From an uncultured Peptococcaceae bacterium (GTDB taxonomy: Bacteria > Bacillota > Dehalobacteriia > UBA4068), in contig CAYJPF010000003.1 in NCBI GenBank assembly GCA_964372025.1, positions 3,334-67,333 of the forward strand: 64,000 nucleotides of DNA, read 5' to 3'. The translations under genes were made by a program, and so were the position numbers. This document shows, piece after piece, positions 3,880 through 17,736 of the stretch. The stretch's first letter is position 1. Every line of letters begins with the position of its first letter. A model generated the notes under the pieces. That model was not told the DNA's origin and did no database searches. It saw only the letters and a list, made by a program, of their open reading frames with translations.

Positions 3880-4088
3880 TGTTCAAGGTAGGCGATGTAG
3901 TGCGTGTCAAAGTCTATGAGCAACGCCCGTCTCGATGGAATAGCGAAGGTGACATGGACAAGTTTATGGGCACAATTCAAACAATCAGCATAGTAAGCGG
4001 TACTGCAATACATCTTCAGGGAGATATTAATTGGATGTGGCGAACAGAAGATTTAATGCCAGCAAATCAATACGAAAGGAGTGATTAA
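3879..4088 (+). CDS. small SH3-like paralog-family protein
   Basis: MFKVGDVVRV...WMWRTEDLMPANQY; GGGAGGTG RBS. Confidence 0.55.
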   Translation: MFKVGDVVRVKVYEQRPSRWNSEGDMDKFMGTIQTISIVSGTAIHLQGDINWMWRTEDLMPANQYERSD

Positions 4089-4331
4089 ATGCGATGGAAA
4101 ATAGGCGACAAAGTTGTCGTAAAGCCGAGAGACCAACTGCGAGGGCTACACATAGTAACACCTATGTATGCGTTTTGCGGAACTGTACAAACAATATACT
4201 CTGTCCCTGCAGAAACACAAATATATTTATTACGACTTGATAGCGCTGACAACCCCGAATGGCATAACGGGCACTGGATTTGGAAGGAGAACGATTTTGA
4301 ACCGCTAAACGAATACAATGGAGGTAAATGA
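4089..4331 (+). CDS. small SH3-like paralog-family protein
   Basis: MRWKIGDKVVV...WIWKENDFEPLNEY. Confidence 0.55.
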   Translation: MRWKIGDKVVVKPRDQLRGLHIVTPMYAFCGTVQTIYSVPAETQIYLLRLDSADNPEWHNGHWIWKENDFEPLNEYNGGK

Positions 4332-4570
4332 TGAATATACAAATAGGCGGCAAGTATAGATTGCGCTACTCAGGAGAAATTTTTTGGAGCGCTGGCATGA
4401 AACATCGGATAGGCAGTATTGTCACGATTCGATGCTATAACCAAAACAGAAGTCGTGGTTTAGATTGCTACAACATCGAAGAGGACTATGGCGAGTTTAA
4501 CGGAAAGGGCTGGACTTACCACAAACAAGATTTTGTACCGATAAACGAATACGACAAAAATAAAAACTAA
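4328..4570 (+). CDS. small SH3-like paralog-family protein
   Basis: IQIGGKYRL...GSIVTI...WTYHKQDFVPINEY. Confidence 0.55.
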   Translation: MMNIQIGGKYRLRYSGEIFWSAGMKHRIGSIVTIRCYNQNRSRGLDCYNIEEDYGEFNGKGWTYHKQDFVPINEYDKNKN

Positions 4571-4591
4571 TACATTTAAGGAGATTTAATT

Positions 4592-6703
4592 ATGGAAATT
4601 GAAATGAAAACAAACGAAACCTCTACAAAAGCTCGCTTTAAAGAAGGCGACAGAGTAAGAGTAACCCGACCCATGGCGATGACAGTGAACTGGGTTGAGC
4701 CTATGGCAAGACATATGAACGAAGTGTTTACCGTAAAAGAAGTCGTTTCTGACGGATATTTCTTTGTAGAACCGCAACACGGTCACCACGAGCGAATTAA
4801 GATGACCGGCAACTGGTGGTGGGCAGATGATTGCTTAGAACTTGAAAATGCAGTAGTACAAGCACCCGAAGAACCTAAGTTGCCGATAGAGAAACCGACT
4901 GAACCTCATAAGTATGCCACGGAAAACGCACAGTTTCTATCCGATTATCCGACTCGTGTAGACCAAATCAGATACTACACTCAAAAAGCTGTTGAGCACT
5001 TCGACCACAAACGTATCGAAGATGATTACAGCTACTCCGGCGTTGAGACAAATGTCGAAGCGTGGTATGACAGCAAACTGCACCTATTTGAGGCGTTCCG
5101 AAATCACCCGCTCTGGAACGAAGAGGCAAAAGCGGTTATAACGAGCGTAGCTATCGAGTACAAACCGCGTTATGTTGACTTTGATAATTACTTTAGGAGA
5201 CTTGTTGAATATAATGCCCAAAGCTCAAACTCGCCGCTGATGCAAAATACCGCTTATCGAGAAGGTGCGGCTAATTGCCGGTCAATCCTTACTCGTTACG
5301 TTAAATGTGGCGTAACAACAATCACTAAAGACTTTATAGACGGAGATGCAAGCACTCCAATCATGAACGGTATGGGCGTGGAGCTTAAAGCCGGACAGAA
5401 AGTCACGAGAGCAATAAACGCATGGCTTAAAAAGCTCGGAGCACACGGCACTCCGTTTGCAAACTCGGAAAACCATTTTATGAAGTGTCACCACGGCGTT
5501 CCGATGGATTTTCACGGACATACCGTAAAAGCTAATTATGTTTATGGAATATATGACAGATACCCGTTTGTTTCTGGCGACGAAGTAAACCGCATGGGCA
5601 TTGAAAAACGTTTACAAATGTATGTTAAAGTCGGCAGCAGTTGGAGCGCTCGAGAAGTTTCCGAAGAAGTTCGCGAAGGCGTTAGAGCCATTCACTACAA
5701 CAAAGTGTTTGCTCAAATGTGCGATGCTATGGTGGCTAAGACAGTCACGCAACCCTACGTTATATCGTTTAACTTCATGGACTTCCTAACTGTATCTAAC
5801 GGGAACTCGTGGTCTTCTTGTCACGCTCTCGATCGTAGCTATCGTGCAGGCGTTCTCTCGTATGCCAACGACGAAAGTTCTGCGGTAACTTATGTGCTCA
5901 GCAAGGAATACACCGGCAACGAATGGTGGGCTGAGCCGAAGGTTAATCGTCAGATGTACCACTTTGACCAAAACGGCGATTGTTTCCTTCAGAGCAGACT
6001 ATACCCGAACGACAACGCAGATGATATTTACGAACCTCTAAGGCACATTGTACAAAAGGCACAATCCGTTGCCTATGCTCGTGCAAATGCGTGGCAAATC
6101 TCTCGTAAGAGTAGAGAGTGCATTTATACTCACGACGATGCTCTGGGCTACAAAGATTACGAAGAGGGCTATAACTCGGTATTCTCCAGCCGTAAAGGTG
6201 CAGATAGAGCAAAAATGCGCATTACTATCGGTGCTCAAGGCTATTGTATCTACAGTGGCGATGACTTGCAGGATAGCGACTCTCTCAACTGCAACAGCGG
6301 CATGACGAAGTGCTATAATTGCGGTAACCGTATTGACGAAGACGATGCAATATACATTAACGACGAATATTACTGCACCGACTGCCTTAGCTACTGCGAC
6401 CACTGTAATGAGTATGTGTTGCCCGGCGACATCGTAGAAGATAGCAGTATCTGTGAAACATGCTATCGCGATGATTATTTCACTTGCGACCACTGCGGAA
6501 GTATTTGGCATAACGAAGATAGTTGCTTTGTTGACGGTGAGGATACTTATGTATGCCCAGACTGTTTGACGGAGTATTACTTCCAATGCGAAGAGTGTAG
6601 CAGGGTGTACACTAACGATGACAGACACGATAGATTGACACACATGTGCGAAAGCTGTGGTGATGAAGCTACAGAAAACGCTGACGAAGAAGGAGCGGAA
6701 TAA
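4592..6703 (+). CDS. large multidomain protein (703 aa)
   Basis: N-terminal SH3-like paralog domain (FKEGDRVRV...WWWADDCLEL), central unknown domain, C-terminal array of about six CxxC zinc-ribbon repeats. Confidence 0.6.
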   Translation: MEIEMKTNETSTKARFKEGDRVRVTRPMAMTVNWVEPMARHMNEVFTVKEVVSDGYFFVEPQHGHHERIKMTGNWWWADDCLELENAVVQAPEEPKLPIEKPTEPHKYATENAQFLSDYPTRVDQIRYYTQKAVEHFDHKRIEDDYSYSGVETNVEAWYDSKLHLFEAFRNHPLWNEEAKAVITSVAIEYKPRYVDFDNYFRRLVEYNAQSSNSPLMQNTAYREGAANCRSILTRYVKCGVTTITKDFIDGDASTPIMNGMGVELKAGQKVTRAINAWLKKLGAHGTPFANSENHFMKCHHGVPMDFHGHTVKANYVYGIYDRYPFVSGDEVNRMGIEKRLQMYVKVGSSWSAREVSEEVREGVRAIHYNKVFAQMCDAMVAKTVTQPYVISFNFMDFLTVSNGNSWSSCHALDRSYRAGVLSYANDESSAVTYVLSKEYTGNEWWAEPKVNRQMYHFDQNGDCFLQSRLYPNDNADDIYEPLRHIVQKAQSVAYARANAWQISRKSRECIYTHDDALGYKDYEEGYNSVFSSRKGADRAKMRITIGAQGYCIYSGDDLQDSDSLNCNSGMTKCYNCGNRIDEDDAIYINDEYYCTDCLSYCDHCNEYVLPGDIVEDSSICETCYRDDYFTCDHCGSIWHNEDSCFVDGEDTYVCPDCLTEYYFQCEECSRVYTNDDRHDRLTHMCESCGDEATENADEEGAE

Positions 6704-6704
6704 C

Positions 6705-7889
6705 ATGACATTTTTTGATATAGTTAAACTCAAACAACATGAACTCAAGCAACAGCTACACGCTGAACTGCGCAAGCATTACGACCAAAGTGACATCAAG
6801 TTTTGCCGAGGATTTCTATACGCTGAAGGCGATATCCCGGTCATGGTAGTCGCTCACCTCGACACAGTACACCGCAAGCCTGTAGAGACTGTATGTGTTA
6901 GCGACGATGGGCGATACGTGATGTCTCCACAAGGCATAGGCGGCGATGACAGGTGTGGGGTATACATTATACTTCAACTTCTCGAACGCTATGGCATTAA
7001 GCCGTATGTACTCTTTACAGAGGACGAAGAAGTGGGCGGTATAGGTGCAAGGATGTTCACCAAGAGCACATTCATGCCAGACTTGAAATATATTATCGAG
7101 TTCGACAGGCGTGGTGATAATGATGCTGTGTTCTATGACTGCGACAATCCTGCGTTTACCGCTTTCGTTGAGACATTCGGTTTCCGTGAAGAGTACGGTT
7201 CGTTCTCGGACATATCTTATATTGCTCCACATTTGAAAGCAGCAGCAGTCAATTTATCTTCGGGCTATTTCAACGAGCACACATTACATGAGATGGTAGA
7301 TTTGGTTGCGGTAGAGGACATCATTAAGCGTGGTGCAAAACTCGTAATGGCACACGATACGGTATCTGCTTATGAGTACATCGAACATGTCTATGTGCCC
7401 AAGCATTACTCATACCGCAATCAGCATAACTTCACCTCCACTTACGCTAAAGGATATGCTGGCGGAGGACTCTATCCTCATGACGAAGAGGAAGACGACA
7501 AATACGAATTTTATTTTCAAGATGATGCACCGAAAAAAACATTACTCGAAACTGAAGTAAGCTATGAGATGGAACTGCGAATTCTATGCGACGATGAATA
7601 CTATTTAAAAGATAGTGAAGGGCATTTCTACATGCCGGATTACTCACATATGGGTTGCGTAGACTCTCGCGGTAGGTTTTATGTAGCGATGGATGTAGGC
7701 GCTACGGACTTTAGCGAAGAATACCCTGTCTTTATCGGCACAGAGTTTACGGTAGTCAGTGAAAGCTTGGGTACGATTATGGCGGTAGAAGCAAACGAAG
7801 ATAATATCTTTGGCGAAATCTGGAGTGAAGCCGACTATGAATGGGAGTTCGGCATACCTTTGGATATGGCTGTAGAGCTGATTGCGTAG
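6705..7889 (+). CDS. M20/M42-type metallopeptidase-like domain protein with C-terminal extension
   Basis: Motifs VMVVAHLDTVH, GGDDRCGV, FTEDEEVGGIGA match the His-x-Asp / Asp / Glu-Glu metal ligands of MH-clan aminopeptidases. Confidence 0.55.
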   Translation: MTFFDIVKLKQHELKQQLHAELRKHYDQSDIKFCRGFLYAEGDIPVMVVAHLDTVHRKPVETVCVSDDGRYVMSPQGIGGDDRCGVYIILQLLERYGIKPYVLFTEDEEVGGIGARMFTKSTFMPDLKYIIEFDRRGDNDAVFYDCDNPAFTAFVETFGFREEYGSFSDISYIAPHLKAAAVNLSSGYFNEHTLHEMVDLVAVEDIIKRGAKLVMAHDTVSAYEYIEHVYVPKHYSYRNQHNFTSTYAKGYAGGGLYPHDEEEDDKYEFYFQDDAPKKTLLETEVSYEMELRILCDDEYYLKDSEGHFYMPDYSHMGCVDSRGRFYVAMDVGATDFSEEYPVFIGTEFTVVSESLGTIMAVEANEDNIFGEIWSEADYEWEFGIPLDMAVELIA

Positions 7890-7897
7890 GTGGTATT

Positions 7898-8095
7898 ATG
7901 TTTGCAAAGGGAGATGTCGTCAGAATTAACCCGGAATTGAAAGGCATAGGGGTGGTGTCAGCGATGTGTCGTTGGTGCGGCTCAGTGCAAGTTATCATGG
8001 AGGTGTCAGGGCAACACGCAACTTTGGTTAAAACACCGTGCAGATGGGATGTATGCGATTTAAGCCCTATAAACGCTTATAAAGGAGACGATTAA
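7898..8095 (+). CDS. small SH3-like paralog-family protein
   Basis: MFAKGDVVRI...GSVQVI...DLSPINAY. Confidence 0.55.
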   Translation: MFAKGDVVRINPELKGIGVVSAMCRWCGSVQVIMEVSGQHATLVKTPCRWDVCDLSPINAYKGDD

Positions 8096-8353
8096 ATGGA
8101 ACTTAAAGTTGGCGAGAAATATATACTAAAACAAAGTTTCGCTCGTAATTGGAACGATTTGATGAAAGCAAGAGATGGCTCGATTGTTACAATTAGAAAA
8201 ATATATTCATCCGGACATTCGCTAAAACCTGTATCTATAGAAGAAGACCAAAAAGAACGTGGGAGCAGTTTTGACGGCAACGGAGGTTGGTTCTATGCCA
8301 AAGAGGACTTCGCTCCCCTAAACCAGTATGACAGAGGTGACGATGATGTTTAA
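8096..8353 (+). CDS. small SH3-like paralog-family protein
   Basis: LKVGEKYIL...GSIVTI...WFYAKEDFAPLNQY. Confidence 0.55.
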   Translation: MELKVGEKYILKQSFARNWNDLMKARDGSIVTIRKIYSSGHSLKPVSIEEDQKERGSSFDGNGGWFYAKEDFAPLNQYDRGDDDV

Positions 8354-8750
8354 AATAGACGATATGGTATACATTAATCCAACCTTTTTATCCCCCAGCG
8401 CATCTCCGGGAAGCTATGCACGACTACTTCATCAACAACAAGCACAACGCATAACTCATTTTACGGATATGCAAGCCCCAGAACGCATGTTTAGTCTTAG
8501 CGAAAGCTTAGCGAAATGGGAAGCCTCTTGTCTTGTGCCGGCGAATATTTACAAACCGGCATTTCACGACTCTACCGAAGGAAGAGCAACCTTAAGGCAG
8601 GCCATGGGCTTGGACGAAGAATACAGGCAAGCACTTGAGCAGATACGTCAAGCAACGCTTTCTATAAATCCTGCTTGGATTGCGAGAACAAGGCGATGGG
8701 TTGAAGAACAAGAGGCTATAGCTTGGAGATTGGAGGGTGACGATGCTTAA
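8343..8750 (+). CDS. divergent SH3-like paralog-family protein with C-terminal extension
   Basis: MMFKIDDMVYI ... LVPANIY motif then about 60 extra residues. Confidence 0.45.
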   Translation: MMFKIDDMVYINPTFLSPSASPGSYARLLHQQQAQRITHFTDMQAPERMFSLSESLAKWEASCLVPANIYKPAFHDSTEGRATLRQAMGLDEEYRQALEQIRQATLSINPAWIARTRRWVEEQEAIAWRLEGDDA

Positions 8751-8982
8751 AGTTGGAGATAAAGTTATAATCGTAGACGCACCGGGAGGAGTAATTATCT
8801 TCCCCGAAATGAAACAATATGTGGGAAAATTAGCAACTGTAGACCACATTGAACGCACTGGTTTTTGTACTCGTGAAACCGGTTTTTTCATATGGTGCTT
8901 TGAAAATGCGATACCAGCGAATATATATCCTAAAAAGGAGGTAGATTACGACGACGACACATGGGAAATAGTACCATTCTAA
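8743..8982 (+). CDS. small SH3-like paralog-family protein
   Basis: MLKVGDKVIIV...GKLATV...FENAIPANIY. Confidence 0.55.
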   Translation: MLKVGDKVIIVDAPGGVIIFPEMKQYVGKLATVDHIERTGFCTRETGFFIWCFENAIPANIYPKKEVDYDDDTWEIVPF

Positions 8983-8997
8983 TTTTGGAGGAAAAAA

Positions 8998-9228
8998 ATG
9001 AACAAGAACAGACGAAAAATACTTGACCGGATAATTAACACTCTCACGGAAGTGAAAGATGACCTTGAGCTTTGCAAGGATGAAGAGCAAGATTGCTTAG
9101 ACAACATGCCCGAGAACCTGCAAGGGTCAAGCAGATACGAAGACGGTGAACAAGCAGTTGCACACATGGAAGACGCGATATATGAACTGGAAAACGCTTT
9201 GGAACATATCGAGGAAGCAAGGCATTGA
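8998..9228 (+). CDS. small acidic helical protein
   Basis: GGAGG RBS; D/E-rich helical sequence. Confidence 0.45.
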   Translation: MNKNRRKILDRIINTLTEVKDDLELCKDEEQDCLDNMPENLQGSSRYEDGEQAVAHMEDAIYELENALEHIEEARH

Positions 9229-9253
9229 CGGTTATCTGCACCTATGATATAAT
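9225..9253 (+). promoter_or_regulatory. sigma70-like promoter TTGACG-17-TATAAT with extended -10 TG
   Basis: TTGACG at 9225-9230, TGaTATAAT ending 9253, 17-nt spacer; followed by GGAGGTG RBS. Confidence 0.5.
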
Positions 9254-9271
9254 TTTTGCGGAGGTGCTATT

Positions 9272-9331
9272 ATGGCAGAGTTGTACTTAATTGTTATGAT
9301 TGTTGGCATAATAGTAGCCGCCGCATCATGA
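9272..9331 (+). CDS. 19-aa hydrophobic mini-ORF (MAELYLIVMIVGIIVAAAS)
   Basis: Strong GGAGGTG 6 nt upstream of ATG 9272; lies between promoter and integrase start. Confidence 0.3.
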   Translation: MAELYLIVMIVGIIVAAAS

Positions 9332-9344
9332 GAAAGGCACACAA

Positions 9345-10232
9345 ATGGACAATTTAAAATGTATAATTAAACAATTTAGCGAATATCAAAAGCGAAGAAA
9401 TCTAAGTTCAACAACCATTACACAGTACGCCACACTGCTCAACAAGTTTGCAGAAAGCGTAGGCGATGTCAGTGTGAGTGATTTAACCAAGCATGATGCC
9501 AACGACTTCCTTGACGGATTTTCCACACAGTCAGACGCTACGAGAGCGCAAAGGGCATGTATTATGAGAGCCTTCTTTCAGTGGGCACACGATGAAGAAC
9601 TGACAGAGCGAAACCTTGGAGCATCCATTATCATCCCAAAGCAAGAGAAGAAAGAAATCGACGTGATGACGGAAGTAAATGCCATGGAAGTTCTCTCGAA
9701 AGCGTACGATACTTACAAGAAAGGTGGGGTTTATGGTCTAAGAGATTACCTAATAGTCCTGTTGTTCCTAAATACAGGCATAAGACGACAGGAACTCCTA
9801 ACAATCACAGCAGAAGATGTAGACGAACCGGGCTGCAGGGTTCTTATTCATGGCAAGGGTAGCAAGCAACGCTTTGTCTATATCGACGCAAACACGGTTG
9901 AGCTAATACGAACTTATTGCAAATTAAACTCAATCGAAAATGGAGCGATTATATTTAACATATCGGTGCGCTCCGTAAATCGCATAATAAATAAGTACAT
10001 GGAAATGGCTGACTGCAAGAAACATGGACGGTCAGCGCATGGTTTGCGCAAAAGATTTGCCACTTCAGCTTATAAAGAAACTTTGGATATTTATTCAGTT
10101 TCTAAAGCTTTAGGGCATAGCACGATAGTCACCTCTGAGAGATATGTACAAGTAGCTCAGGACGAAATAAGAAAGGCATTTAATGCTGTAAAATTTAAAA
10201 TTGAAAGTGAGAATAATAATGAGAACAATTAG
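9345..10232 (+). CDS. int: tyrosine recombinase / phage integrase
   Basis: C-terminal catalytic signature HGLRKRFATSAY...LGHSTIVTSERYVQV (R..HxxR..Y); N-terminal SAM-like core-binding region. Confidence 0.85.
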   Translation: MDNLKCIIKQFSEYQKRRNLSSTTITQYATLLNKFAESVGDVSVSDLTKHDANDFLDGFSTQSDATRAQRACIMRAFFQWAHDEELTERNLGASIIIPKQEKKEIDVMTEVNAMEVLSKAYDTYKKGGVYGLRDYLIVLLFLNTGIRRQELLTITAEDVDEPGCRVLIHGKGSKQRFVYIDANTVELIRTYCKLNSIENGAIIFNISVRSVNRIINKYMEMADCKKHGRSAHGLRKRFATSAYKETLDIYSVSKALGHSTIVTSERYVQVAQDEIRKAFNAVKFKIESENNNENN

Positions 10233-10590
10233 AAGAGGCGAAGTTTACTGGTGCGATTTTTCGGCACCGATGCAACAAACATATGTACAAAAGTACAGCA
10301 GACCGGTCATCATAATGCAGAACGATTTAGGCAATGCAAATAGTGCGACAACGATTGTAGTTCCGCTAACCACGCAACTAAAAACTAAGCTATACCCTAC
10401 GCAGTTACCCTTCTATATGGGGCGTAAGCTTCAAATAGCACGTACAGAACAGATACAGACGATAGACAAAACAATCCTCGGTGATTACATCGACACGCTC
10501 AGCGAGGACATAATCGAGGAAGTAGAGCGCAAGATACACATAGCTATCGGGGCTGTCGGATACGATGTAGAGGAGGATGACGAGAACTAA
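10219..10590 (+). CDS. mazF: EndoA/MazF (PemK-family) endoribonuclease toxin homolog
   Basis: RGEVYWCDFS...RPVIIMQNDLGNANSATTIVVPLTTQ...EQIQTIDK aligns closely with B. subtilis EndoA/NdoA along its length; acidic C-terminal tail. Confidence 0.85.
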   Translation: MRTIRRGEVYWCDFSAPMQQTYVQKYSRPVIIMQNDLGNANSATTIVVPLTTQLKTKLYPTQLPFYMGRKLQIARTEQIQTIDKTILGDYIDTLSEDIIEEVERKIHIAIGAVGYDVEEDDEN

Positions 10591-10976
10591 TGTCAACTTA
10601 TAAGCTAATGGAAGTTTCAAAGGTCACAGGCATATCTCGCCAGACACTGCTCAATCGTATTCAGAAAGGCGAAATAAAGGCAGAGCTTAATGATGTAGGT
10701 GTGTACTCTATCACCGAGAAAGAACTCAAACGCATACACAAAGAGCATATACAGAGTCAGCAATGTATGCCTATCACAAGGGCTGCAGAAGAGCTTGGGG
10801 TAAGCTACAAAGCTTTAGCGGCGCAGGTGAGCAACGGCAACGTTAAGTCTATAGACGGTGGAAAACGTAGAGTGTACATTCCACTGAGCGAAGTCAAACG
10901 CCTGAAGGACATCATCGCAAAATCACGGAAAACTGTACAGCTCAACAACATACTTAAAAATTGGGAGGAAAATTAA
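10590..10976 (+). CDS. tandem excisionase/MerR-type HTH DNA-binding protein (possible Xis or atypical antitoxin)
   Basis: Two HTH units (VSKVTGISRQTLLNRIQKGEI; AAEELGVSYKALAAQVSNG); start overlaps toxin stop (TAATG). Confidence 0.55.
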   Translation: MSTYKLMEVSKVTGISRQTLLNRIQKGEIKAELNDVGVYSITEKELKRIHKEHIQSQQCMPITRAAEELGVSYKALAAQVSNGNVKSIDGGKRRVYIPLSEVKRLKDIIAKSRKTVQLNNILKNWEEN

Positions 10977-11390
10977 ATGAAAGATAACGCAAGGAAAATA
11001 TTTGACATGCTGGAGTTGAAACCCTTTGAACAATTTTATTTCAATGGGCAAGGGATTTACCATTTTGATTCCGAGTTGCAGCTACACTATACAGACGCAG
11101 ACGCAGACGGATGTACAGGCATCGCATACCGAAAGTTTGTATTGGATGTACTCTTAAATCCGGAGAAGATTGTAAAAAAGCCTTGGACGCCAAAAATAGG
11201 AAAAAACTATTGGTACATTACGACAGATGGAGTGCCAGTGTGGCATCCGTTTAGCGTAAACGTAGGGGCCGATGTCATGCGAGTAAGGCTTGGCAACTGT
11301 TATCCTAACAAAGAGGAAGCTCTTAAACCTGAAGTTCTTGCTAGATGGAAAGAGTTTTATAGTTCTACGGAGAGAATAGCATGGGAATAG
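10977..11390 (+). CDS. hypothetical protein (137 aa)
   Basis: GGGAGG RBS; no motif. Confidence 0.5.
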   Translation: MKDNARKIFDMLELKPFEQFYFNGQGIYHFDSELQLHYTDADADGCTGIAYRKFVLDVLLNPEKIVKKPWTPKIGKNYWYITTDGVPVWHPFSVNVGADVMRVRLGNCYPNKEEALKPEVLARWKEFYSSTERIAWE

Positions 11391-11566
11391 TGAGAAACAT
11401 ATCAAGCATCTTCAAAGACAAACAGCGACAACCTAAATACAATAGCCCGTACGACGTTCCACAAGCTCTGCACTGCGATAACTGTGCGTATAAGGGTAAA
11501 GACGAGTGCAATGGAGTTCGTTGCTTCACGGGCATCTTAAAACAAATACAGGAGGACAGGCAATGA
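11381..11566 (+). CDS. small Cys-containing protein
   Basis: ORF 61 aa with CDNCAYKGKDEC. Confidence 0.35.
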   Translation: MGIVRNISSIFKDKQRQPKYNSPYDVPQALHCDNCAYKGKDECNGVRCFTGILKQIQEDRQ

Positions 11567-11844
11567 TTAGAAGAGAGATACTGCAAGAGGCAGAAAAGTG
11601 CGTATGCACAGATAGGAACGACCAATACGGAAGTCCTGAGAATAACTTTGCACTGATAGCTAAGTATTGGAATTTGTATCTTGGTGAACCTTATAAAGTT
11701 ACAGCTGAAAACGTGGGGATGATGCTTGCACTAATGAAGGTAGCGAGGATACAGACTGGTAAATTTAAAATGGACTCGTGGATAGACGCTTGTGGGTATA
11801 TGGCAATTTCTGGAGAGATATCCCAAGAAGGGGGGCAAAATTAA
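11563..11844 (+). CDS. conserved phage protein resembling the DUF6378-type N-terminal domain of phage dNTP pyrophosphohydrolases
   Basis: RNDQYGSPENNFALIAKYWNLYLG...VTAENVGMMLALMKVARI pattern recalled from phage genomes; assignment by memory only. Confidence 0.4.
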   Translation: MIRREILQEAEKCVCTDRNDQYGSPENNFALIAKYWNLYLGEPYKVTAENVGMMLALMKVARIQTGKFKMDSWIDACGYMAISGEISQEGGQN

Positions 11845-12732
11845 ATGCGCCATTTTATTGAATTAACTGGACAAAAATTTACAAGGTTGCGTGTATTAAG
11901 TGTTACTAACCAAAGAGATAGCCACGGAGCTGTTAAATGGCTGTGCAAGTGCGATTGTGGCAACGAGAAGGTTGTTTCTTCACGGCTTTTAAGAAGTGGA
12001 CAGACTAAATCTTGCGGTTGTTTGAATACTGAATTGCGAATGCAAAGAGGTAGAGATGGCAAAATTCACGGAAAGACTGGCACTAAGCTTTATAACGTAT
12101 GGGCAGGCATAAAAAGACGTTGTTACAACCAAAATCAACAAAAATATAAACTCTATGGGGCGAGAGGCATTATAATGTGCGACGAATGGAAAAATGATTA
12201 TGCAGCATTTGAGAGGTGGGCTGTAAATAATGGATATAAGGAGGATTGTGATTTGAGCATAGACAGAATCGACAATGATGGCAATTACGAACCTGATAAT
12301 TGCAGAATAGTAAACAGATATATTCAAGCGAATAATACTCGTTTGAATAATTTGCTAACGTACAAAGGCGTAACCAAAACTATGGCACAATGGGGTAGAG
12401 AATTAGGCTTTCCAAGTTATTTGTTAGGATTAAGAATTACAAGGTATGGGTGGAGCATTGAAAAAGCCTTTGAAACGCCTTTAATAAGTCGAAATCGCTT
12501 TATAACTTTTAACGGAAAAACACAAACAATCACTGAATGGGCAAGAGAATATGGGTTGAGCTACAGTGTTTTAAAAGGACGACTTGATGTAAGCGGTTTA
12601 CCGATAGAAAAAGCATTAAATGCTCCTAAAGGGAAAAAAACACTTAGGGATTATCTGGTTTGCTCGGGGGAAATTGCAACTAAGGAGGAAGCGGATGAAT
12701 GGATTGACAACGCAATCAACACAGATAGCTGA
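11845..12732 (+). CDS. HNH homing-endonuclease-like protein with C-terminal NUMOD-like DNA-binding repeats
   Basis: KLYNVWAGIKRRCYN...YKLYGARGIIMCDEW...IDRIDNDGNYEPDNCRIV core; repeated G.T.T..EWaRE.G motifs at C-terminus. Confidence 0.65.
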   Translation: MRHFIELTGQKFTRLRVLSVTNQRDSHGAVKWLCKCDCGNEKVVSSRLLRSGQTKSCGCLNTELRMQRGRDGKIHGKTGTKLYNVWAGIKRRCYNQNQQKYKLYGARGIIMCDEWKNDYAAFERWAVNNGYKEDCDLSIDRIDNDGNYEPDNCRIVNRYIQANNTRLNNLLTYKGVTKTMAQWGRELGFPSYLLGLRITRYGWSIEKAFETPLISRNRFITFNGKTQTITEWAREYGLSYSVLKGRLDVSGLPIEKALNAPKGKKTLRDYLVCSGEIATKEEADEWIDNAINTDS

Positions 12733-13519
12733 GTTCGAGAAACGCTTACCGGCAATCATCGAACAAATCAAACAAAAGACTGAACTGGCGACAAGCTTAG
12801 TATGTAGCGAAGAAACGCGAGCAAGCGTTAAGAAAGTCCGGGCAGAACTAAATGCAGACAGTGCGGCCTTACACAAAGAGTTCGTGGATTTCGAGAAGCA
12901 ACTCCTCGCACCATGGCTTGAAGTAAAAGAAAAGTACCATGAGGAAATCCTTCAGCAGTACAGAAGAGCAGACCTCAATCTCAAAGCTAAAATCAATGAG
13001 GTTGAGGATGGGCTAATTCAAGAGAAAACTCTCGAACTCTATGGGTACATCCAACAGTACGCAACAAGCCTATACTTATCATGGGTAGTAGCGGATAAAC
13101 TGGGTATCAAAGTCAACCTCACAGCAAGCATAACATCGCTCAAAAAGAAAGCTCGTGCAAAACTGGATAGGATACGCAAAGATGTGGACATGATAACAAG
13201 CTTGGACAACGCAGATGTGGTTATGTCATTCTATCTTGAACGCTACGATGCCTCATACGCAATCACAGAAGCTCACAGAGCGACGATAAGGACTCAGGAG
13301 GGTAAAGCCACCCTTGAGAGCGTTAGCCCGCTGTGCGACAGCTATGAGCCTCCCACGGCTATGTCTGAAGTGGTAGCAACAGAAGCACCCACTATCCAAG
13401 ACGGCAAAGAAAACCAAGATGAACTCTTCTCAATCACTTTTACCGTTACTACAAGTAGGCAGAAGCTGAAGGAGTTGAAAGAATTTCTGGACGAGGGGGG
13501 GTATATTTTAGAAAGTTAG
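12695..13519 (+). CDS. hypothetical helical protein (274 aa)
   Basis: ATG at 12695 in frame; coiled-coil-rich; no motif. Confidence 0.5.
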   Translation: MNGLTTQSTQIAEFEKRLPAIIEQIKQKTELATSLVCSEETRASVKKVRAELNADSAALHKEFVDFEKQLLAPWLEVKEKYHEEILQQYRRADLNLKAKINEVEDGLIQEKTLELYGYIQQYATSLYLSWVVADKLGIKVNLTASITSLKKKARAKLDRIRKDVDMITSLDNADVVMSFYLERYDASYAITEAHRATIRTQEGKATLESVSPLCDSYEPPTAMSEVVATEAPTIQDGKENQDELFSITFTVTTSRQKLKELKEFLDEGGYILES

Positions 13520-13521
13520 TG

Positions 13522-13550
13522 TTGACAGCATGAGTAAATCGTGCTACAAT
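13522..13550 (+). promoter_or_regulatory. consensus sigma70 promoter TTGACA-17-TACAAT
   Basis: TTGACA 13522-13527, TACAAT 13545-13550, 17-nt spacer ending aTCGTGC. Confidence 0.55.
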
Positions 13551-13680
13551 ATATGTAAAGAAGCACAGACTATTCGTGGTAGTTTGAGGCTGATAATAAA
13601 TTTGTTAAATACCTTTCCCGGGGGTGCCACGAACACTCTTGGGAGAGGCATTTTTTATCTTAGCAAATAAGGAGCATAAA

Positions 13681-14352
13681 ATGAAACTTGAAACTAATAC
13701 TGGAGTGTATTTTTTATTCAACGATGACAAATTGGTGTATGTTGGAATGAGCTCTCATTTATCGAGACGCATTCAGCAATCTGTTGCCGAACGGAAAGCT
13801 GAAGGGCATGACATTACCGATTTCGCATATCACACAGTTAAAACGCGCAAAGAAGCTGAAATCTTAGAGAGAGTGTTGATATCAGAGTTGCGACCACCCG
13901 CTAACCGGATGTTCAACACGGACGATAGTCAAATGCCTACGATACAGCATCGCATCAACGTTTCCGAGCTTTCTAAAACAAGCTTGAATGCAGTAGAAAT
14001 TGTATTGCCACCTCCTATTGATGTTTCAGCTGTTTTTTCTCATTCCATGCTAATAAGTTCTGCATGGATAAGCCTTAGCCCCAAACAACAATCCTTGTAT
14101 TTGCACTGCAAGGTAGAGCAGGTGTACCAGCATCTGGATGAAAAAGAAGAACACCTTGAAGAAAATTGTTTTTATTTTAATAAAAAAATCTGGAATAAAA
14201 AGTATAAGCTGTACTCGGAAACGTCAGATGCACGTTTGGTGAAAGATATGCGTGGTTTAATTCAAAAAGGTTTTGTTGATTGCATACACTCGGGCCAAAA
14301 GACAAGAACGAAAAACGTCTATCGTCTTTCTGAAAGATGGCAGAACATATGA
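13681..14352 (+). CDS. GIY-YIG nuclease domain protein
   Basis: GVYFLFNDDKLVYVGMSSHLSRRIQQ = GIY...YIG...R motif; 130-nt leader from upstream promoter. Confidence 0.65.
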   Translation: MKLETNTGVYFLFNDDKLVYVGMSSHLSRRIQQSVAERKAEGHDITDFAYHTVKTRKEAEILERVLISELRPPANRMFNTDDSQMPTIQHRINVSELSKTSLNAVEIVLPPPIDVSAVFSHSMLISSAWISLSPKQQSLYLHCKVEQVYQHLDEKEEHLEENCFYFNKKIWNKKYKLYSETSDARLVKDMRGLIQKGFVDCIHSGQKTRTKNVYRLSERWQNI

Positions 14353-14379
14353 GCCAAAATACTTTTAAGGAGGAACAAA

Positions 14380-14694
14380 ATGATTAAATGCAAATTTTGC
14401 AACGGAACTAACCTGATTGCGAAGGTAGTTGGAACACACACCGGGCTATACTGTATTGACTGTGGCAATAAGTGGAACAAATGGCTCAGTAAAGGCGAAG
14501 TGTCCGAGCTTGCTAACCAGATAAGAAAAGGTAAAGCCAAGGCTGAGTGTCGAAACATCACACAAGCAAGGCACTCGGATGAATTTCAGTGTAGCGAATG
14601 TGGAATTAACTTGGGATGGTGGGCTTGCAACAATACTTATGAGCAGTTTGAATTCAAGTTTTGCCCTAACTGCGGAAGAAAGGTTACGGTGTGA
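14380..14694 (+). CDS. zinc-ribbon protein
   Basis: CKFCNG...CIDCGN and CSECG...CPNCG pairs; AGGAGG RBS. Confidence 0.5.
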   Translation: MIKCKFCNGTNLIAKVVGTHTGLYCIDCGNKWNKWLSKGEVSELANQIRKGKAKAECRNITQARHSDEFQCSECGINLGWWACNNTYEQFEFKFCPNCGRKVTV

Positions 14695-14697
14695 CAA

Positions 14698-14850
14698 TGA
14701 AGGTGTTGGCCGGAATAGTTGTTACAGTATTCAGTGCCTTGGTAATGCTGTTTATTCTTCAAGAGGGAAGCTTGCTTGCTCACATAATGGCTGTATTGTG
14801 GACAGCGGTATATATTGGAAGTATCGTAGTGCTGATAGTAGTAGATTGAG
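14698..14850 (+). CDS. possible 50-aa two-TM membrane peptide, not in ORF track
   Basis: MKVLAGIVVTVFSALVMLFILQEGSLLAHIMAVLWTAVYIGSIVVLIVVD read directly from sequence. Confidence 0.25.
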
Positions 14851-14855
14851 GAGGA

Positions 14856-15038
14856 ATGAAAATGCAACTAAAAGCTAAATGCCTTGGGCAAGAACTCGAG
14901 GTAAACGCAGAGATACCGATAGATAGGTCGTACTTGGACACTAAGACCGGGCAGGTCGTAGTAATTATTTTAGCAACTACAGTGCCGTTGGTGTTGGGGA
15001 TAACGGCGTATAACTTAACGAAGAAGGTGGCAGTATGA
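14856..15038 (+). CDS. small membrane protein
   Basis: GAGGAGG RBS; TM segment VVVIILATTVPLVLGITAY. Confidence 0.35.
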   Translation: MKMQLKAKCLGQELEVNAEIPIDRSYLDTKTGQVVVIILATTVPLVLGITAYNLTKKVAV

Positions 15039-15220
15039 GAGGACTATACGCAGCAATAGCAGATGATAATTACCGCACCAAGCTTATCGAACGGCTACAC
15101 AAGTACGATTACCATAAGTTATATACAAGGTCGGAGACAAGTCGAATGGATGTAACTCAACTCAAACGAGCAATAGATAGGGTGTTTGAACACAATAACA
15201 ATATGAAAGGCAGGAAATAA
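15035..15220 (+). CDS. hypothetical small protein
   Basis: overlapping start/stop; 61 aa. Confidence 0.35.
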   Translation: MRGLYAAIADDNYRTKLIERLHKYDYHKLYTRSETSRMDVTQLKRAIDRVFEHNNNMKGRK

Positions 15221-15221
15221 T

Positions 15222-16043
15222 ATGTCAACAGCAGTAGCTAAGCAAGTACCTTTTAGCGTAGCCATCTCAGGCGACCAGTACCAAGGAATGATTAAGAGGG
15301 CTTTAACAGACCCGAAAGACCAACAGCGTTTCATAGCGTCCATTACGAGTGCAGTAGCGGCAACACCGGCACTACAGGCTTGTACGCCCCAAACAATACT
15401 ATCCTCGGCTCTCGTGGGGCATAGCCTTAACCTCTCGCCTTCACCTCAGCTTGGGCAGTTTTACTTCTTACCCTTTAGAGACACAAAGAACGGCGTGACG
15501 AACGCAGTGCCGTGTATAGGCTATAAGGGATACATACAGCTTGCGTTAAGAACAGGAGCGTACAAGAAACTAAATGTTATCCCTATAAAGAAAGGCGAGT
15601 TCATAAGCTATAATCCGCTTACAGAGGACATCAACGTTAAGATGATAGAAGACCCAACGGAGCGTGAAATGGCCGAGACGGTCGGATACTACGCCTTCTT
15701 CGAGTACCTTAACGGTTTTACTAAGTCTATGTACTGGACAAAAGAAAAAGTCGAGATACACGGCAAGCGTTACTCTAAAGCATACAGCAAGCCTGACTCG
15801 TTCTGGCAAAGAGATTTCGATGCTATGGGCTGTAAGACACTCATTAGACAGCTTATCTCACACTGGGGCGTTATGTCTATTGAACTTCAATCGGCTATGG
15901 ACAACGATGGTGACTTCAGCGATGCGCTTGAAGCCGAAGAGTACGAAGTCCTTGAGCCTGAAACCGCTCCGGAACCGACACAAGAGCCTGAGAAGAAAGC
16001 CAAAGAGAGTAAGGCTATCGACTCATTCGACGACATTTTGTAA
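15222..16043 (+). CDS. recT: RecT-family single-strand annealing protein
   Basis: TPQTILSSALVGHSLNLSPSPQLGQFYFLPF...IGYKGYIQLALRTGAYKKLNVIPIKKGE matches RecT core pattern. Confidence 0.7.
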   Translation: MSTAVAKQVPFSVAISGDQYQGMIKRALTDPKDQQRFIASITSAVAATPALQACTPQTILSSALVGHSLNLSPSPQLGQFYFLPFRDTKNGVTNAVPCIGYKGYIQLALRTGAYKKLNVIPIKKGEFISYNPLTEDINVKMIEDPTEREMAETVGYYAFFEYLNGFTKSMYWTKEKVEIHGKRYSKAYSKPDSFWQRDFDAMGCKTLIRQLISHWGVMSIELQSAMDNDGDFSDALEAEEYEVLEPETAPEPTQEPEKKAKESKAIDSFDDIL

Positions 16044-16045
16044 CT

Positions 16046-16429
16046 ATGTATAAGTGTGAGAACTGCGGTTATACGACCGATGAATTGACTCTTGAAATTG
16101 AGTACATACCTTACGGCGACGAAATGGCAAGGCATGAAAGTTGCTCATACGATTGTGGCAGATGCGGTGGGGAGCTAATCCCTGCCGTTTCTTGCCATGA
16201 GTGCTCCGAAGATTTCCTTAAAGAAGAAATGGTTGGACAATTGTGCAAGGAGTGCTTTGAAGATTACAAGGCGCTTAAGTACATGAAGCAGTACATCTCA
16301 GAAAGAGGATTAACTCAAGAGTATCTAAGCTACAACAGAGACCCTCTGATTGAGGATGAAGAATTAATACTCCAGTTTGTAATGGAAGAGCCAGAAGACT
16401 TTGCAGACTGGATTTGCGGAAAGGAATAA
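16046..16429 (+). CDS. zinc-ribbon protein
   Basis: CENCG...CGRCG...CHEC...CKEC. Confidence 0.5.
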   Translation: MYKCENCGYTTDELTLEIEYIPYGDEMARHESCSYDCGRCGGELIPAVSCHECSEDFLKEEMVGQLCKECFEDYKALKYMKQYISERGLTQEYLSYNRDPLIEDEELILQFVMEEPEDFADWICGKE

Positions 16430-16431
16430 TT

Positions 16432-16659
16432 ATGTTAGTCAGGCAGGCAAAAGATACAGACGGAAAAGAAAAAATCGAAATCGTAAAGTATTGTGATTGC
16501 GCATCTTGCATGAACAATTTAAGGCAAAAAAAGGGCGTCAACTCTGTAGCCATTTACGCCAACACAGTGACAGATATCCTACTTGCTAAAGAAAAGGCAA
16601 ACAAGTGGATTTGTGGTGGAAGGCCATACAGCCATACGCCAGAGTTTGTTTATATTTAA
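16432..16659 (+). CDS. hypothetical small protein
   Basis: ATG 16432; CDCASC motif. Confidence 0.4.
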   Translation: MLVRQAKDTDGKEKIEIVKYCDCASCMNNLRQKKGVNSVAIYANTVTDILLAKEKANKWICGGRPYSHTPEFVYI

Positions 16660-16671
16660 AAGGAGAAAGCA

Positions 16672-16869
16672 ATGGAAGATAAAAGTAAAATAGTTTTCGA
16701 CATGCACCTATATGCAAAAGCAACACATAGAGAAACGCGCAACATACCTCTGTGGGCACAGAACAGCCACGGCAGAACGGTTGAAGATTTGGAAGCAATG
16801 GGGAGGGTGATTTACCCCGAGTGGACGACCCCAAAGGGACAGGGTGCAAAGGTGTTATCGCATGGGTGA
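16672..16869 (+). CDS. hypothetical small protein
   Basis: AGGAGAAAG RBS. Confidence 0.4.
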   Translation: MEDKSKIVFDMHLYAKATHRETRNIPLWAQNSHGRTVEDLEAMGRVIYPEWTTPKGQGAKVLSHG

Positions 16870-16926
16870 CACATATCAGCATGGTGATGCGTTTGAAATG
16901 AGAAAAAAGATTGGAGCATTTAAGAA

Positions 16927-17682: not shown

Positions 17683-17736
17683 CTGATTTTCACAACTTTT
17701 AAACGTACTTTAAATCAATAAAGCAAGGTGATGTAT

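What the first reader, a model, noticed from the sequence alone, without database searches (positions are those of the whole stretch)
9225..10976. Orphan EndoA/MazF toxin homolog wedged between integrase and a double-HTH gene, downstream of a consensus promoter and a 19-aa hydrophobic leader ORF
Seen directly: the 124-aa ORF at 10219-10590 aligns almost residue-for-residue with B. subtilis EndoA/NdoA (RGEVYWCDFS, RPVIIMQNDLGN, TIVVPLTTQ, EQIQTIDK).

No MazE/EndoAI-like antitoxin gene precedes it; its start overlaps the integrase stop. Its stop overlaps (TAATG) the start of a 128-aa protein made of two excisionase/MerR-type HTH units. That protein could be the recombination directionality factor, an inverted-order antitoxin, or both.

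The cassette is driven by a TTGACG-17-TGaTATAAT promoter (9225-9253). The promoter is followed by GGAGGTG and a 19-codon hydrophobic ORF (MAELYLIVMIVGIIVAAAS), then the integrase. The toxin carries an acidic C-terminal tail absent from EndoA.

This could be a phage-borne addiction, abortive-infection or anti-host RNase module tied to lysogeny control.
Basis: partly seen in the sequence, partly recalled or inferred. Interest (0 to 1): 0.75.

Follow-up and report, generated by a model that had tools for sequence, protein, structure and literature searches.

The report
Antitoxin-less MazF RNase gene in phage
A bacteriophage carries an apparently active MazF-type RNA-cutting toxin gene with no recognisable antidote, packed between a Xer-like recombinase gene and a DNA-binding protein gene; such lone phage MazF genes are already annotated in many phages, so this is a further example, not a new kind of system.

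Summary
These are a near-consensus extended -10 promoter, an SD plus 19-codon hydrophobic ORF, a 295-aa tyrosine recombinase, a 123-aa MazF/PemK homologue whose start overlaps the recombinase stop, and a 128-aa tandem winged-HTH protein joined by TAATG.

MazF membership is solid: Pfam PemK_toxin scores 80.8 bits, and the catalytic Arg and Thr are conserved as R28 and T51. Identity to EndoA is only about 33%, so "residue-for-residue" overstates it.

No MazE, AbrB or RHH antitoxin was found anywhere in the 64 kb.

One diverged relative (L013) keeps the recombinase, MazF and 2xHTH order at 30-44% identity. However, two other 2xHTH homologues sit next to RecT with no MazF in the short stretches of contig held. 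None of 166 MazF-relative loci carries the 2xHTH protein. The acidic tail is unique to this protein.

Lone MazF genes occur in 85 phage records (PHROG 1936).

Best reading: a phage-deployed solitary endoribonuclease in an early operon. The HTH protein is more likely a regulator or recombination directionality factor than an antitoxin.

Verdict: new member of a known kind, moderate interest.

The parts
9225..9253 (+). Sigma-A/sigma-70-type promoter with extended -10 (TTGACG, 17 nt, TGaTATAAT). The -35 hexamer overlaps the stop codon of the upstream 76-aa gene.
   Evidence: It ties for top score in 4000-23000. In the whole window, 3 sites have at most 1 mismatch plus TG, against 0.15 expected. 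All 8 sites with at most 2 mismatches are oriented with the local genes.
9258..9324 (+). Predicted 5'-terminal RNA hairpin of the transcript. It pairs the SD and AUG of the small ORF with the ORF's own 3' half. It contains the inverted repeat CTATTATGGCA / TGGCATAATAG.
   Evidence: RNA fold gives -29.3 kcal/mol, z -2.6, with 4 of 200 shuffles folding as well. Inverted repeat I19. Its function is inferred only.
9273..9332 (+). 19-codon hydrophobic ORF (MAELYLIVMIVGIIVAAAS), preceded by GGAGGTG at 9260-9266.
   Evidence: Read directly from the sequence. Of 36 sense-strand GGAGG motifs followed by a start codon within 4-11 nt, 30 start long ORFs. No homologue is available and translation is untested.
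9345..10232 (+). Xer-like tyrosine recombinase, 295 aa, with no arm-binding domain. Catalytic residues are R148, K171/K174, H232, R235, H258 and Y267.
   Evidence: Pfam Phage_integrase 1.9e-20 plus SAM-like N-domains, and PHROG 1 integrase 6.4e-40. Best PDB relatives are XerC-like 4a8e, XerH, XerD and XerA. It is 44% identical to the L013 recombinase, with the catalytic residues invariant.
10219..10590 (+). MazF/PemK-family endoribonuclease homologue, 123 aa. Its start overlaps the recombinase stop by 14 nt. Catalytic residues are R28 and T51. It ends in a C-terminal tail, YDVEEDDEN.
   Evidence: Pfam PF02452 80.8 bits and PHROG 1936. PDB hits to EndoA and MazF at about 1e-13. Alignment with 8 homologues. 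The catalytic roles of Arg25 and Thr48 are taken from PMC7354611.
10590..10976 (+). Tandem winged-HTH (excisionase/MerR-type, HTH_17) DNA-binding protein, 128 aa, with a long C-terminal helix. Its start shares one base with the MazF stop (TAATG).
   Evidence: Pfam HTH_17. The PADLOC mad1 model matches both units. The AlphaFold2 model has pLDDT 80.8 and shows two beta-alpha-alpha-beta-beta-alpha units. Foldseek finds MerR N-domains, RacA, BldC and TraN. The profile's best PDB hit is 4j2n Gp37.
10977..13519 (+). Rest of the same probable transcription unit. It holds a 137-aa ORFan, a DUF6378 protein, an HNH endonuclease-like protein and a DUF1351/PHROG 674 protein. It runs up to the next strong promoter at 13522.
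   Evidence: No + strand terminator-like site lies between 9253 and 13612.

Best explanation
The window is a tailed-phage genome. Its + strand early block contains a host-RNA-polymerase promoter at 9225. That promoter drives a tightly packed operon: a structured leader with a possible 19-aa peptide, a Xer-like tyrosine recombinase, a solitary MazF/PemK endoribonuclease, a tandem winged-HTH DNA-binding protein, and further early genes.

Shown:
- The identities of the three proteins.
- Intact catalytic residues in MazF (R28, T51).
- Absence of any recognisable MazE, AbrB or RHH antitoxin.
- The overlapping gene junctions.
- The strength of the promoter.

Inferred:
- MazF is made early in infection and cuts single-stranded RNA at a short sequence motif. 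This damps host translation, or that of a competing element, to the phage's benefit.
- No dedicated protein antitoxin is needed, because the infected cell is expendable or because the amount and timing of MazF are limited.
- The 2xHTH protein is mainly a DNA-binding regulator or a recombination accessory factor of the early/recombination module, not the MazF antidote.
- The recombinase-MazF-HTH order is inherited synteny of one rare phage lineage.
For: - MazF family membership and catalytic residues.
- No MazE-type hit in 50 small ORFs by Pfam. No hit in all six-frame ORFs of at least 35 aa by BLASTP with recalled MazE, PemI and EndoAI sequences.
- Lone MazF homologues occur in 85 phage records. 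In four sampled phages they sit among early or replication genes, and the 10 flanking proteins scanned have no Pfam-recognisable antitoxin domain.
- The closest viral MazF (46% identity, same RGEVYWCD motif) lies in a small contig with a protein-primed PolB.
- The 2xHTH homologues P0007 and P0028 lie beside RecT, with no MazF in the short stretches of contig held.
- 0 of 166 MazF-relative loci carry the 2xHTH.
- The operon context shows a strong promoter and no terminator until 13612.
- Sense-strand-only depletion of ACATA, TACAT and TAACA fits some selection against MazF/EndoA-type sites, though weakly.
- GC content of the block matches its surroundings, so it is not a recent island.
Against: - One diverged relative (L013) keeps the recombinase, MazF and 2xHTH together while the small genes between and after them differ. 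This hints at functional linkage.
- MazF and the HTH gene are joined by TAATG, and the nearest GGAGG is 13 nt from the HTH start codon. HTH synthesis may therefore depend on MazF translation, as in toxin-first toxin-antitoxin operons.
- An unrecognised antitoxin among the ORFans cannot be excluded.
- There are no expression, toxicity or cleavage data.
- The phage's lifestyle is unknown, and 6.4 kb of the contig was not seen.
- The motif depletion is modest and was found by exploration.
Confidence: 0.5

Rival explanations
1. Toxin-first type II toxin-antitoxin pair. The tandem-wHTH protein is the antitoxin and autorepressor. It binds MazF through its C-terminal helix and tail, and binds operator repeats around the promoter. 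The pair then acts as an addiction, abortive-infection or superinfection-exclusion module of a lysogen or plasmid-prophage, next to its recombinase.
For: - The TAATG stop/start overlap with poor SD spacing suggests translational coupling.
- The HTH protein is a DNA binder with a lower-confidence C-terminal helix.
- The trio is retained in L013 at 30-44% identity.
- Some other phage or metagenome MazF genes are followed by HTH genes: L102 sigma70_r4 (overlapping), L118 HTH_17, L126.
- Three copies of CTATKATR lie within 73 nt at the promoter and leader, although the motif was chosen after seeing the region.
Against: - In L013 a 106-aa Cys-rich gene separates MazF from the HTH gene. A Zn-ribbon gene occupies the classical upstream antitoxin position there.
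- Two of three HTH homologues have no MazF in the short flanks held.
- 0 of 166 MazF relatives have this partner.
- Only about 4-5 of 70 small downstream neighbours (up to 200 aa) carry any HTH domain.
- Overlapping junctions are the rule throughout this phage.
- No MazF antitoxin with an HTH_17 fold came up in the literature searches.
Confidence: 0.22
2. Lysogeny or mobility module. The recombinase is the phage integrase and the 2xHTH protein is its excisionase (recombination directionality factor). MazF is a passenger gene ('moron') that benefits the lysogen, for example by excluding other phages. It would be kept in check by host MazE or by an unrecognised phage inhibitor.
For: - HTH_17 is the excisionase family. 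The best PDB sequence hit of the HTH profile is 4j2n Gp37, which I recall to be a mycobacteriophage Xis. Foldseek finds TraN, an internal dimer of excisionase-like folds.
- The HTH gene lies near the recombinase gene in both the window and L013.
- An Ant-like anti-repressor at 16927-17682 hints at temperate ancestry.
- Heliusvirales phages that carry lone MazF genes are mostly temperate (PMC11283538).
Against: - No repressor, attP, tRNA or divergent switch was found in 64 kb.
- The recombinase lies mid-operon among co-directional early genes.
- The HTH homologues in L011 and L015 lie next to RecT, with no recombinase in the DNA held.
- Typical excisionases have a single unit of 50-80 aa.
- The direct repeat flanking the block is not an outlier among gene-start pairs.
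Confidence: 0.18
3. Counter-defence decoy. The phage MazF homologue does not act mainly as an RNase. Instead it interferes with the host MazEF system, for example by forming inactive heterodimers with host MazF or by binding host MazE.
For: - Phages are known to target host MazF: phi3T AimX and YosL bind and inactivate it (PMC10769878).
- The beta1-beta2 loop is divergent, and the otherwise invariant PTH motif is changed to PTQ in this protein.
Against: - Both catalytic residues and most family-invariant positions are kept.
- Nothing specific supports a decoy role.
- The host is unknown.
Confidence: 0.07

Closest known systems
B. subtilis EndoA/MazF (NdoA, PDB 4MDX/4ME7) and Firmicutes MazF toxins
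   Same: Same Pfam family (PF02452). Full-length alignment. Catalytic Arg25 and Thr48 equivalents (R28, T51). Conserved RPV..QND.GN and EQ..T.D motifs.
   Different: - Only about 33% identical.
- No upstream EndoAI/MazE (RHH) gene.
- Phage-borne.
- Longer and different beta1-beta2 loop.
- PTH changed to PTQ.
- A 4-residue deletion before the EQ motif.
- Nine extra acidic C-terminal residues.
PHROG 1936 'MazF-like growth inhibitor': lone MazF genes of Firmicutes phages (Heliusvirales NatCom phages, Lactobacillus phage Maenad, Enterocloster CB473P1)
   Same: A solitary MazF homologue embedded in a co-directional early or replication gene cluster, with no recognisable antitoxin. Sequence identity is 32-38%.
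   Different: The neighbours differ. In those phages they are helicase, HNH or methyltransferase genes. Here, and in L013, they are a Xer-like recombinase and a tandem-wHTH protein.
Toxin-first type II toxin-antitoxin operons (HigBA, MqsRA, HicAB)
   Same: The toxin gene comes first and overlaps a downstream gene for an HTH DNA-binding protein. The unit is driven by a strong promoter.
   Different: The toxin family is MazF. The partner is a tandem excisionase/MerR-type winged HTH, not an Xre-type HTH. No binding or neutralisation has been shown. The partner is not conserved beside MazF relatives.
Excisionase/MerR-type wHTH proteins: phage Xis proteins (PDB 4j2n Gp37), RacA, BldC, and pIP501 TraN (two fused excisionase-like units)
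   Same: The beta-alpha-alpha-beta-beta-alpha winged-HTH fold. TraN also has two such units in one chain.
   Different: Sequence similarity is marginal (E 0.004-0.05). This protein has a long extra C-terminal helix. Its DNA targets are unknown.
Xer-type tyrosine recombinases (XerA, XerD, XerH) and small phage integrases
   Same: Two-domain architecture of about 295 aa without an arm-binding domain. All catalytic residues are present.
   Different: It is encoded mid-operon in a phage early block. Its recombination site and role (integration, dimer resolution or other) are unknown.

Membership tests
MazF/PemK toxin family (PF02452) | Full-length match to the family profile above the curated threshold | tested here: met
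   80.8 bits against a cut-off of 23.1; residues 5-108 match profile positions 1-107 of 109. PHROG 1936 at 1.4e-20. PDB MazF/EndoA hits at about 1e-13.
MazF/PemK toxin family (PF02452) | Catalytic Arg (Bs/Bc Arg25) and Thr/Ser (Thr48) | tested here: met
   R28 and T51 align with Arg25 and Thr48. Their catalytic roles are from PMC7354611.
MazF/PemK toxin family (PF02452) | SH3-like beta-barrel fold forming a homodimer | tested here: inconclusive
   The AlphaFold2 model from a 3-sequence alignment failed (pLDDT 38.9). The fold is inferred from sequence homology only.
MazF/PemK toxin family (PF02452) | Sequence-specific endoribonuclease activity and growth inhibition | not testable with these tools
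   Needs expression and cleavage assays.
Canonical MazEF type II toxin-antitoxin system | Cognate MazE-type (AbrB/SpoVT or RHH) antitoxin gene immediately upstream in the same operon | tested here: not met
   - The upstream gene is the recombinase.
- No MazE, AbrB or RHH Pfam hit appears in 50 small ORFs of the window.
- There is no BLASTP similarity to recalled MazE, PemI or EndoAI sequences.
- For comparison, 7 of 67 small upstream ORFs of MazF relatives hit RHH_1.
Toxin-first type II toxin-antitoxin pair (HigBA/MqsRA-like organisation) | Toxin gene followed by, and coupled to, a DNA-binding antitoxin gene | tested here: met
   TAATG overlap at 10588-10592. The downstream protein is a tandem winged-HTH protein. 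This covers organisation only.
Toxin-first type II toxin-antitoxin pair (HigBA/MqsRA-like organisation) | The partner gene is conserved next to the toxin across relatives | tested here: inconclusive
   It is kept nearby, though not adjacent, in L013. It is absent beside 166 MazF relatives. Two HTH homologues have no MazF in the short flanks held.
Toxin-first type II toxin-antitoxin pair (HigBA/MqsRA-like organisation) | The antitoxin binds and neutralises the toxin | not testable with these tools
   No multimer prediction was available. Needs co-expression or pull-down.
Tyrosine recombinase / phage integrase (PF00589) | Catalytic domain with the R-K-H-R-H-Y residues, plus a SAM-like core-binding domain | tested here: met
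   Pfam hits. R148, K171/K174, H232, R235, H258 and Y267 are invariant with L013. Xer-like PDB relatives.
Tyrosine recombinase / phage integrase (PF00589) | Acts as the integrase of a temperate phage (attP next to the gene, prophage copies, repressor switch) | tested here: inconclusive
   No tRNA, no repressor domain and no convincing att repeats. However, 6.4 kb of the contig and the host genomes were not examined.
Excisionase / recombination directionality factor (HTH_17, PF12728) | MerR/excisionase-type winged HTH | tested here: met
   HTH_17 scores 35.1 bits against a cut-off of 27. The AlphaFold2 topology agrees. PDB hits are Gp37 4j2n and MerR N-domains.
Excisionase / recombination directionality factor (HTH_17, PF12728) | Consistent genetic linkage to a recombinase gene | tested here: inconclusive
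   Linked in the window and in L013. In L011 and L015 the homologue sits beside RecT, with no recombinase in the DNA held.

The most novel reading that the evidence does not exclude
The recombinase, MazF and tandem-wHTH trio may be a self-contained maintenance module of a rare phage lineage. In this reading MazF plus the 2xHTH protein form a toxin-first type II toxin-antitoxin pair, with a new antitoxin fold made of two fused excisionase-like winged-HTH units. That protein might also serve as the recombinase's directionality factor. Post-segregational killing would thereby be coupled to integration or dimer resolution, as Cre and Phd/Doc together do for the P1 plasmid-prophage.
Probability: 0.15. 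Interest if true: 0.6.

Novelty: new member of a known kind. Interest (0 to 1): 0.38.

Why it matters
Lone MazF genes are annotated in many Firmicutes phages (PHROG 1936). None of the nine full-text searches I ran, in an open-access library, turned up an experimental study of what a phage does with an antitoxin-less MazF.

This locus is a clean test case:
- the catalytic residues are intact;
- a strong promoter drives it;
- there is a candidate coupled partner;
- one diverged relative shares the same three genes.

Two outcomes would be informative. Showing that the phage uses MazF as an offensive RNase would add a host-takeover or inter-element competition mechanism. Showing that the tandem-wHTH protein neutralises MazF would add a new antitoxin fold.

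As it stands, the finding is an ordinary annotation with one open question.

Tried and rejected
- Close relatives. Megablast of the locus and of 25 kb against phage records found nothing. Single-protein scans of IMG/VR with MazF and the recombinase found nothing. All three proteins are singletons at 90% clustering. The exact-sequence contig look-up failed.\n- HTH protein searches. tblastn against phages and plasmids gave no match. The metagenome scan with the HTH alignment found nothing. The IMG/VR scan gave one single-unit HTH_17 and one spurious hit.\n- Recombinase alignment scan of IMG/VR gave only 23-28% relatives.\n- The AlphaFold2 model of MazF was unusable (pLDDT 38.9), so no fold search was run on it.\n- Acidic tail as a built-in pseudo-antitoxin: rejected. 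It is absent from L013 and all other homologues, and its codons hold a GGAGG motif 13 nt before the next start codon.\n- The 47-nt direct repeat at 8981-9027 and 10958-11006 as attL/attR of a mobile cassette: rejected. It consists of the SD plus first 10 codons of two genes. At 20 of 30 matches it is the top of 4560 gene-start pairs, but the next pairs score 19 and 18. The 76-aa protein is an ordinary, widespread phage family across its full length.\n- The block as a recently acquired island: rejected, because GC content is unremarkable.\n- PADLOC defence models gave nothing for MazF or the recombinase.\n- Rfam found no family anywhere in the window.\n- Avoidance of the EndoA motif UACAU in phage mRNAs is only weak (53 observed against 73 expected, z -3.0).\n- I did not try to submit an artificial MazF-linker-HTH fusion for structure prediction, because only window sequences are admitted.
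Full report
**Observation**

- The promoter is TTGACG, 17 nt, TGaTATAAT at 9225-9253.
- GGAGGTG lies at 9260-9266.
- A 19-codon ORF (MAELYLIVMIVGIIVAAAS) runs from 9273 to 9332.
- A 295-aa ORF runs from 9345 to 10232.
- A 123-aa ORF runs from 10219 to 10590. Its ATG lies 14 nt inside the previous ORF.
- A 128-aa ORF runs from 10590 to 10976. Its ATG shares one base with the preceding TAA.

The promoter is more than a chance match. Sites with at most one mismatch plus the TG extension occur 3 times in the window, against 0.15 expected. Sites with at most two mismatches occur 8 times, against 1.7 expected. All eight point in the direction of the local genes.

**What the genes are**

The 295-aa protein is a two-domain tyrosine recombinase.
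- Pfam gives Phage_integrase at 1.9e-20 plus SAM-like N-terminal domains. PHROG 1 gives 6.4e-40.
- Its closest solved relatives are Xer-type enzymes: 4a8e, XerH, XerD and XerA.
- The catalytic R, K, H-x-x-R, H and Y residues are present.

The 123-aa protein is a MazF/PemK family member.
- PF02452 scores 80.8 bits against a cut-off of 23.1. PHROG 1936, 'MazF-like growth inhibitor', scores 1.4e-20.
- Against solved structures it matches EndoA and MazF of Bacillus and Staphylococcus at about 1e-13.
- Identity is only about 33%, so "almost residue-for-residue" holds only for the quoted motifs.
- The two residues shown by mutagenesis to be needed for MazF catalysis, Arg25 and Thr48 (PMC7354611), are conserved as R28 and T51.
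- Peculiarities are a longer, different beta1-beta2 loop, PTQ in place of the PTH found in all eight other sequences of the alignment, and the acidic tail.

The 128-aa protein is a DNA-binding protein.
- It hits HTH_17, and both halves match the small HTH model mad1.
- Its AlphaFold2 model (pLDDT 80.8) shows two tandem beta-alpha-alpha-beta-beta-alpha winged-HTH units followed by a long helix.
- Foldseek finds MerR N-terminal domains, RacA, BldC and pIP501 TraN.
- A four-sequence profile hits 4j2n Gp37 best, at E 0.004. From memory this is a mycobacteriophage Xis.

**Context**

The window is a tailed-phage genome.
- Early genes occupy the + strand from 51 to 22015. They include RecT, an Ant-like protein, SSB, HNH and GIY-YIG endonucleases, and DUF6378.
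- Structural and tail genes occupy the - strand from 22047 to 63977.
- The source is a 70,377-bp NCBI contig. All three proteins are singletons at 90% clustering.
- Between the promoter at 9225 and the next strong promoter at 13522 there is no terminator-like site on the + strand. The three genes are therefore part of a roughly 4.3-kb early operon, not an insulated cassette.
- GC content is unremarkable across the region.
- No repressor, tRNA or divergent lysogeny switch was seen. However, 6.4 kb of the contig lies outside the window.

**Is MazF really orphan?**

Yes, as far as sequence methods can see.
- Fifty small ORFs of the window gave no MazE, AbrB, SpoVT or RHH hit in Pfam.
- BLASTP with MazE, PemI and EndoAI sequences recalled from memory found nothing in any six-frame ORF of at least 35 aa.

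This is not unusual for phages.
- 85 phage records encode homologues.
- In four that I inspected (two Heliusvirales phages, Enterocloster CB473P1 and Lactobacillus Maenad), MazF sits among co-directional early genes. The 10 flanking proteins I scanned have no recognisable antitoxin domain.

Bacterial and metagenomic relatives differ somewhat. Among them, 7 of 67 small upstream neighbours hit RHH_1 and 5 hit RHH_5.

**Is the HTH protein the partner?**

An exhaustive HMMER search of 1.84 billion representative proteins found only 31 relatives at E up to 1e-3. Most are proteins with several HTH_17 repeats, and three share the two-unit architecture. Their contexts are informative.

L013 (NCBI GCA_028748325.1) carries the same three genes in the same order:
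- a recombinase 44% identical to the window's;
- a 73-aa Zn-ribbon gene;
- a PemK gene at 32-37% identity;
- a 106-aa Cys-rich gene;
- the 2xHTH homologue at 30% identity;
- an unrelated 156-aa gene.

So the trio persists across deep divergence while the small genes around it turn over.

Other evidence points the other way.
- The other two homologues lie directly upstream of RecT, with no MazF or recombinase in the short stretches of contig held (L011/L012 and L015).
- None of 166 loci encoding MazF relatives, drawn from species-representative genomes, metagenomes and IMG/VR, carries the 2xHTH protein or a close recombinase.
- Downstream HTH genes of any kind follow only a few of them. Examples are L102 with a sigma70_r4 gene that overlaps MazF, and L118 with an HTH_17 gene.

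I conclude that the HTH family is not a dedicated MazF partner. The trio is best described as lineage-specific synteny with two known instances. An antitoxin role in this lineage is not excluded.

**Small features**

The acidic tail is unique to this protein. Its codons (GAGGAGGATGACGAG) hold a GGAGG motif 13 nt before the next start codon. The HTH tail (NWEEN) likewise encodes the SD of the next gene, with 8-nt spacing. I regard the tails as by-products of gene packing.

The 19-codon ORF has an ideal SD. In this phage, 30 of 36 GGAGG motifs followed by a start codon within 4-11 nt are starts of long ORFs. However, the transcript's first 67 nt are predicted to form one hairpin. The hairpin scores -29.3 kcal/mol with z -2.6, and it sequesters that SD and AUG. 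Whether this element is a peptide, an mRNA 5' stabiliser or a regulatory element cannot be decided here.

The motif CTATKATR occurs three times within 73 nt at the promoter and leader, out of 14 copies in the window. I picked it after seeing the region, so it is only a candidate operator.

**Mechanism**

I favour (0.5) a solitary, phage-deployed endoribonuclease. Host RNA polymerase would transcribe the operon early, and MazF dimers would cut host or competitor RNA at a short motif. No dedicated antitoxin would be needed.

A weak supporting hint is sense-strand-specific depletion of three motifs relative to synonymous-codon shuffles, while their reverse complements are not depleted:
- ACATA: 48 observed against 80 expected;
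- TACAT: 53 against 73;
- TAACA: 50 against 88.

Rivals:
- a toxin-first toxin-antitoxin pair with the HTH protein as antitoxin (0.22);
- an integrase-plus-excisionase lysogeny module with MazF as a passenger gene (0.18);
- a decoy acting on host MazEF (0.07). Phages are known to target host MazF (PMC10769878).

**Novelty**

Phage-borne lone MazF genes already form an annotated family, but the full-text searches I ran found no experimental study of them. This is a new member of that kind. Its neighbourhood (Xer-like recombinase plus tandem-wHTH protein) did not appear in any other locus examined here except L013.

It becomes interesting only if the HTH protein proves to be a new type of MazF antitoxin, or if the phage is shown to use MazF offensively.

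Noticed in passing
window 1-64000: Extreme avoidance of short palindromes. GATC occurs once, against about 148 expected within genes. CTAG occurs 5 times, against about 129 expected. CCWGG is absent. GANTC, GGWCC, GCWGC, AATT, GGCC, GCATGC and GTCGAC are strongly depleted on both strands. The pattern looks like restriction-site avoidance.
   Followed up: partly
window 13522-13660: A second near-consensus extended -10 promoter (TTGACA, 17 nt, TGcTACAAT) is followed within about 100 nt by a strongly folding RNA. The fold scores -36 kcal/mol with z -4.4, and 0 of 200 shuffles fold as well. It ends in a 15-bp GC-rich hairpin plus a U-run. This could be a phage sRNA of about 100 nt or an attenuator ahead of the GIY-YIG gene. 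No Rfam family matches.
   Followed up: partly
window, all genes (sense strand): Depletion on the sense strand only, relative to synonymous-codon shuffles: TAACA (50 observed against 88 expected, z -4.9), ACATA (48 against 80, z -4.1), ACAT and TACAT. The reverse complements are not depleted. This may reflect selection against MazF/EndoA-type cleavage sites, or it may be a codon-pair effect.
   Followed up: partly
window 8981-9027 and 10958-11006: The SD plus first 10 codons of the genes flanking the block resemble each other (MNKNRRKILD against MKDNARKIFD; 20 of 30 nt after the ATG). This is the best of 4560 gene-start pairs, but other pairs score 19 and 18, so it is probably compositional.
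   Followed up: yes
L013 808-1685 (NCBI JAMHJL010003881.1): In the only lineage relative, MazF is flanked by two small Cys-rich genes that are absent from the window. A 73-aa double-Zn-ribbon protein overlaps the MazF start, which is the classical antitoxin position. A 106-aa Cys-rich protein lies downstream.
   Followed up: partly
L102 3974-4649 (IMG/VR UViG_3300001528_000398): The closest viral MazF (46% identity, same RGEVYWCD motif) lies just after a protein-primed family-B DNA polymerase gene in a 15.7-kb contig. A 110-aa sigma70-region-4-type HTH gene overlaps its 3' end by 20 nt.
   Followed up: partly
L011 1816-3304, L015 247-1077, L009 704-2568: Tandem or single HTH_17 genes recur immediately upstream of RecT or exonuclease recombination modules in unrelated phage contigs. 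This suggests a role for this HTH family at the head of the recombination module.
   Followed up: partly
window 11845-12732 and 13624-14352: An HNH endonuclease-like gene (PHROG 374, 1.2e-75) and a GIY-YIG domain gene lie in the same early block. They may be homing endonucleases.
   Followed up: no
window 62141-62371 (- strand): A second, single-unit HTH_17 protein of 76 aa lies near the start of the - strand block. It is unrelated in position to the finding.
   Followed up: no
L008 5001-7308 (ENA k141_4101017): A 39%-identical lone MazF lies in an apparent conjugative element with sortase and TED/SpaA surface-protein genes. A 64-aa ORF and a large serine recombinase follow it. This is another case of a MazF gene next to a recombinase.
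   Followed up: no
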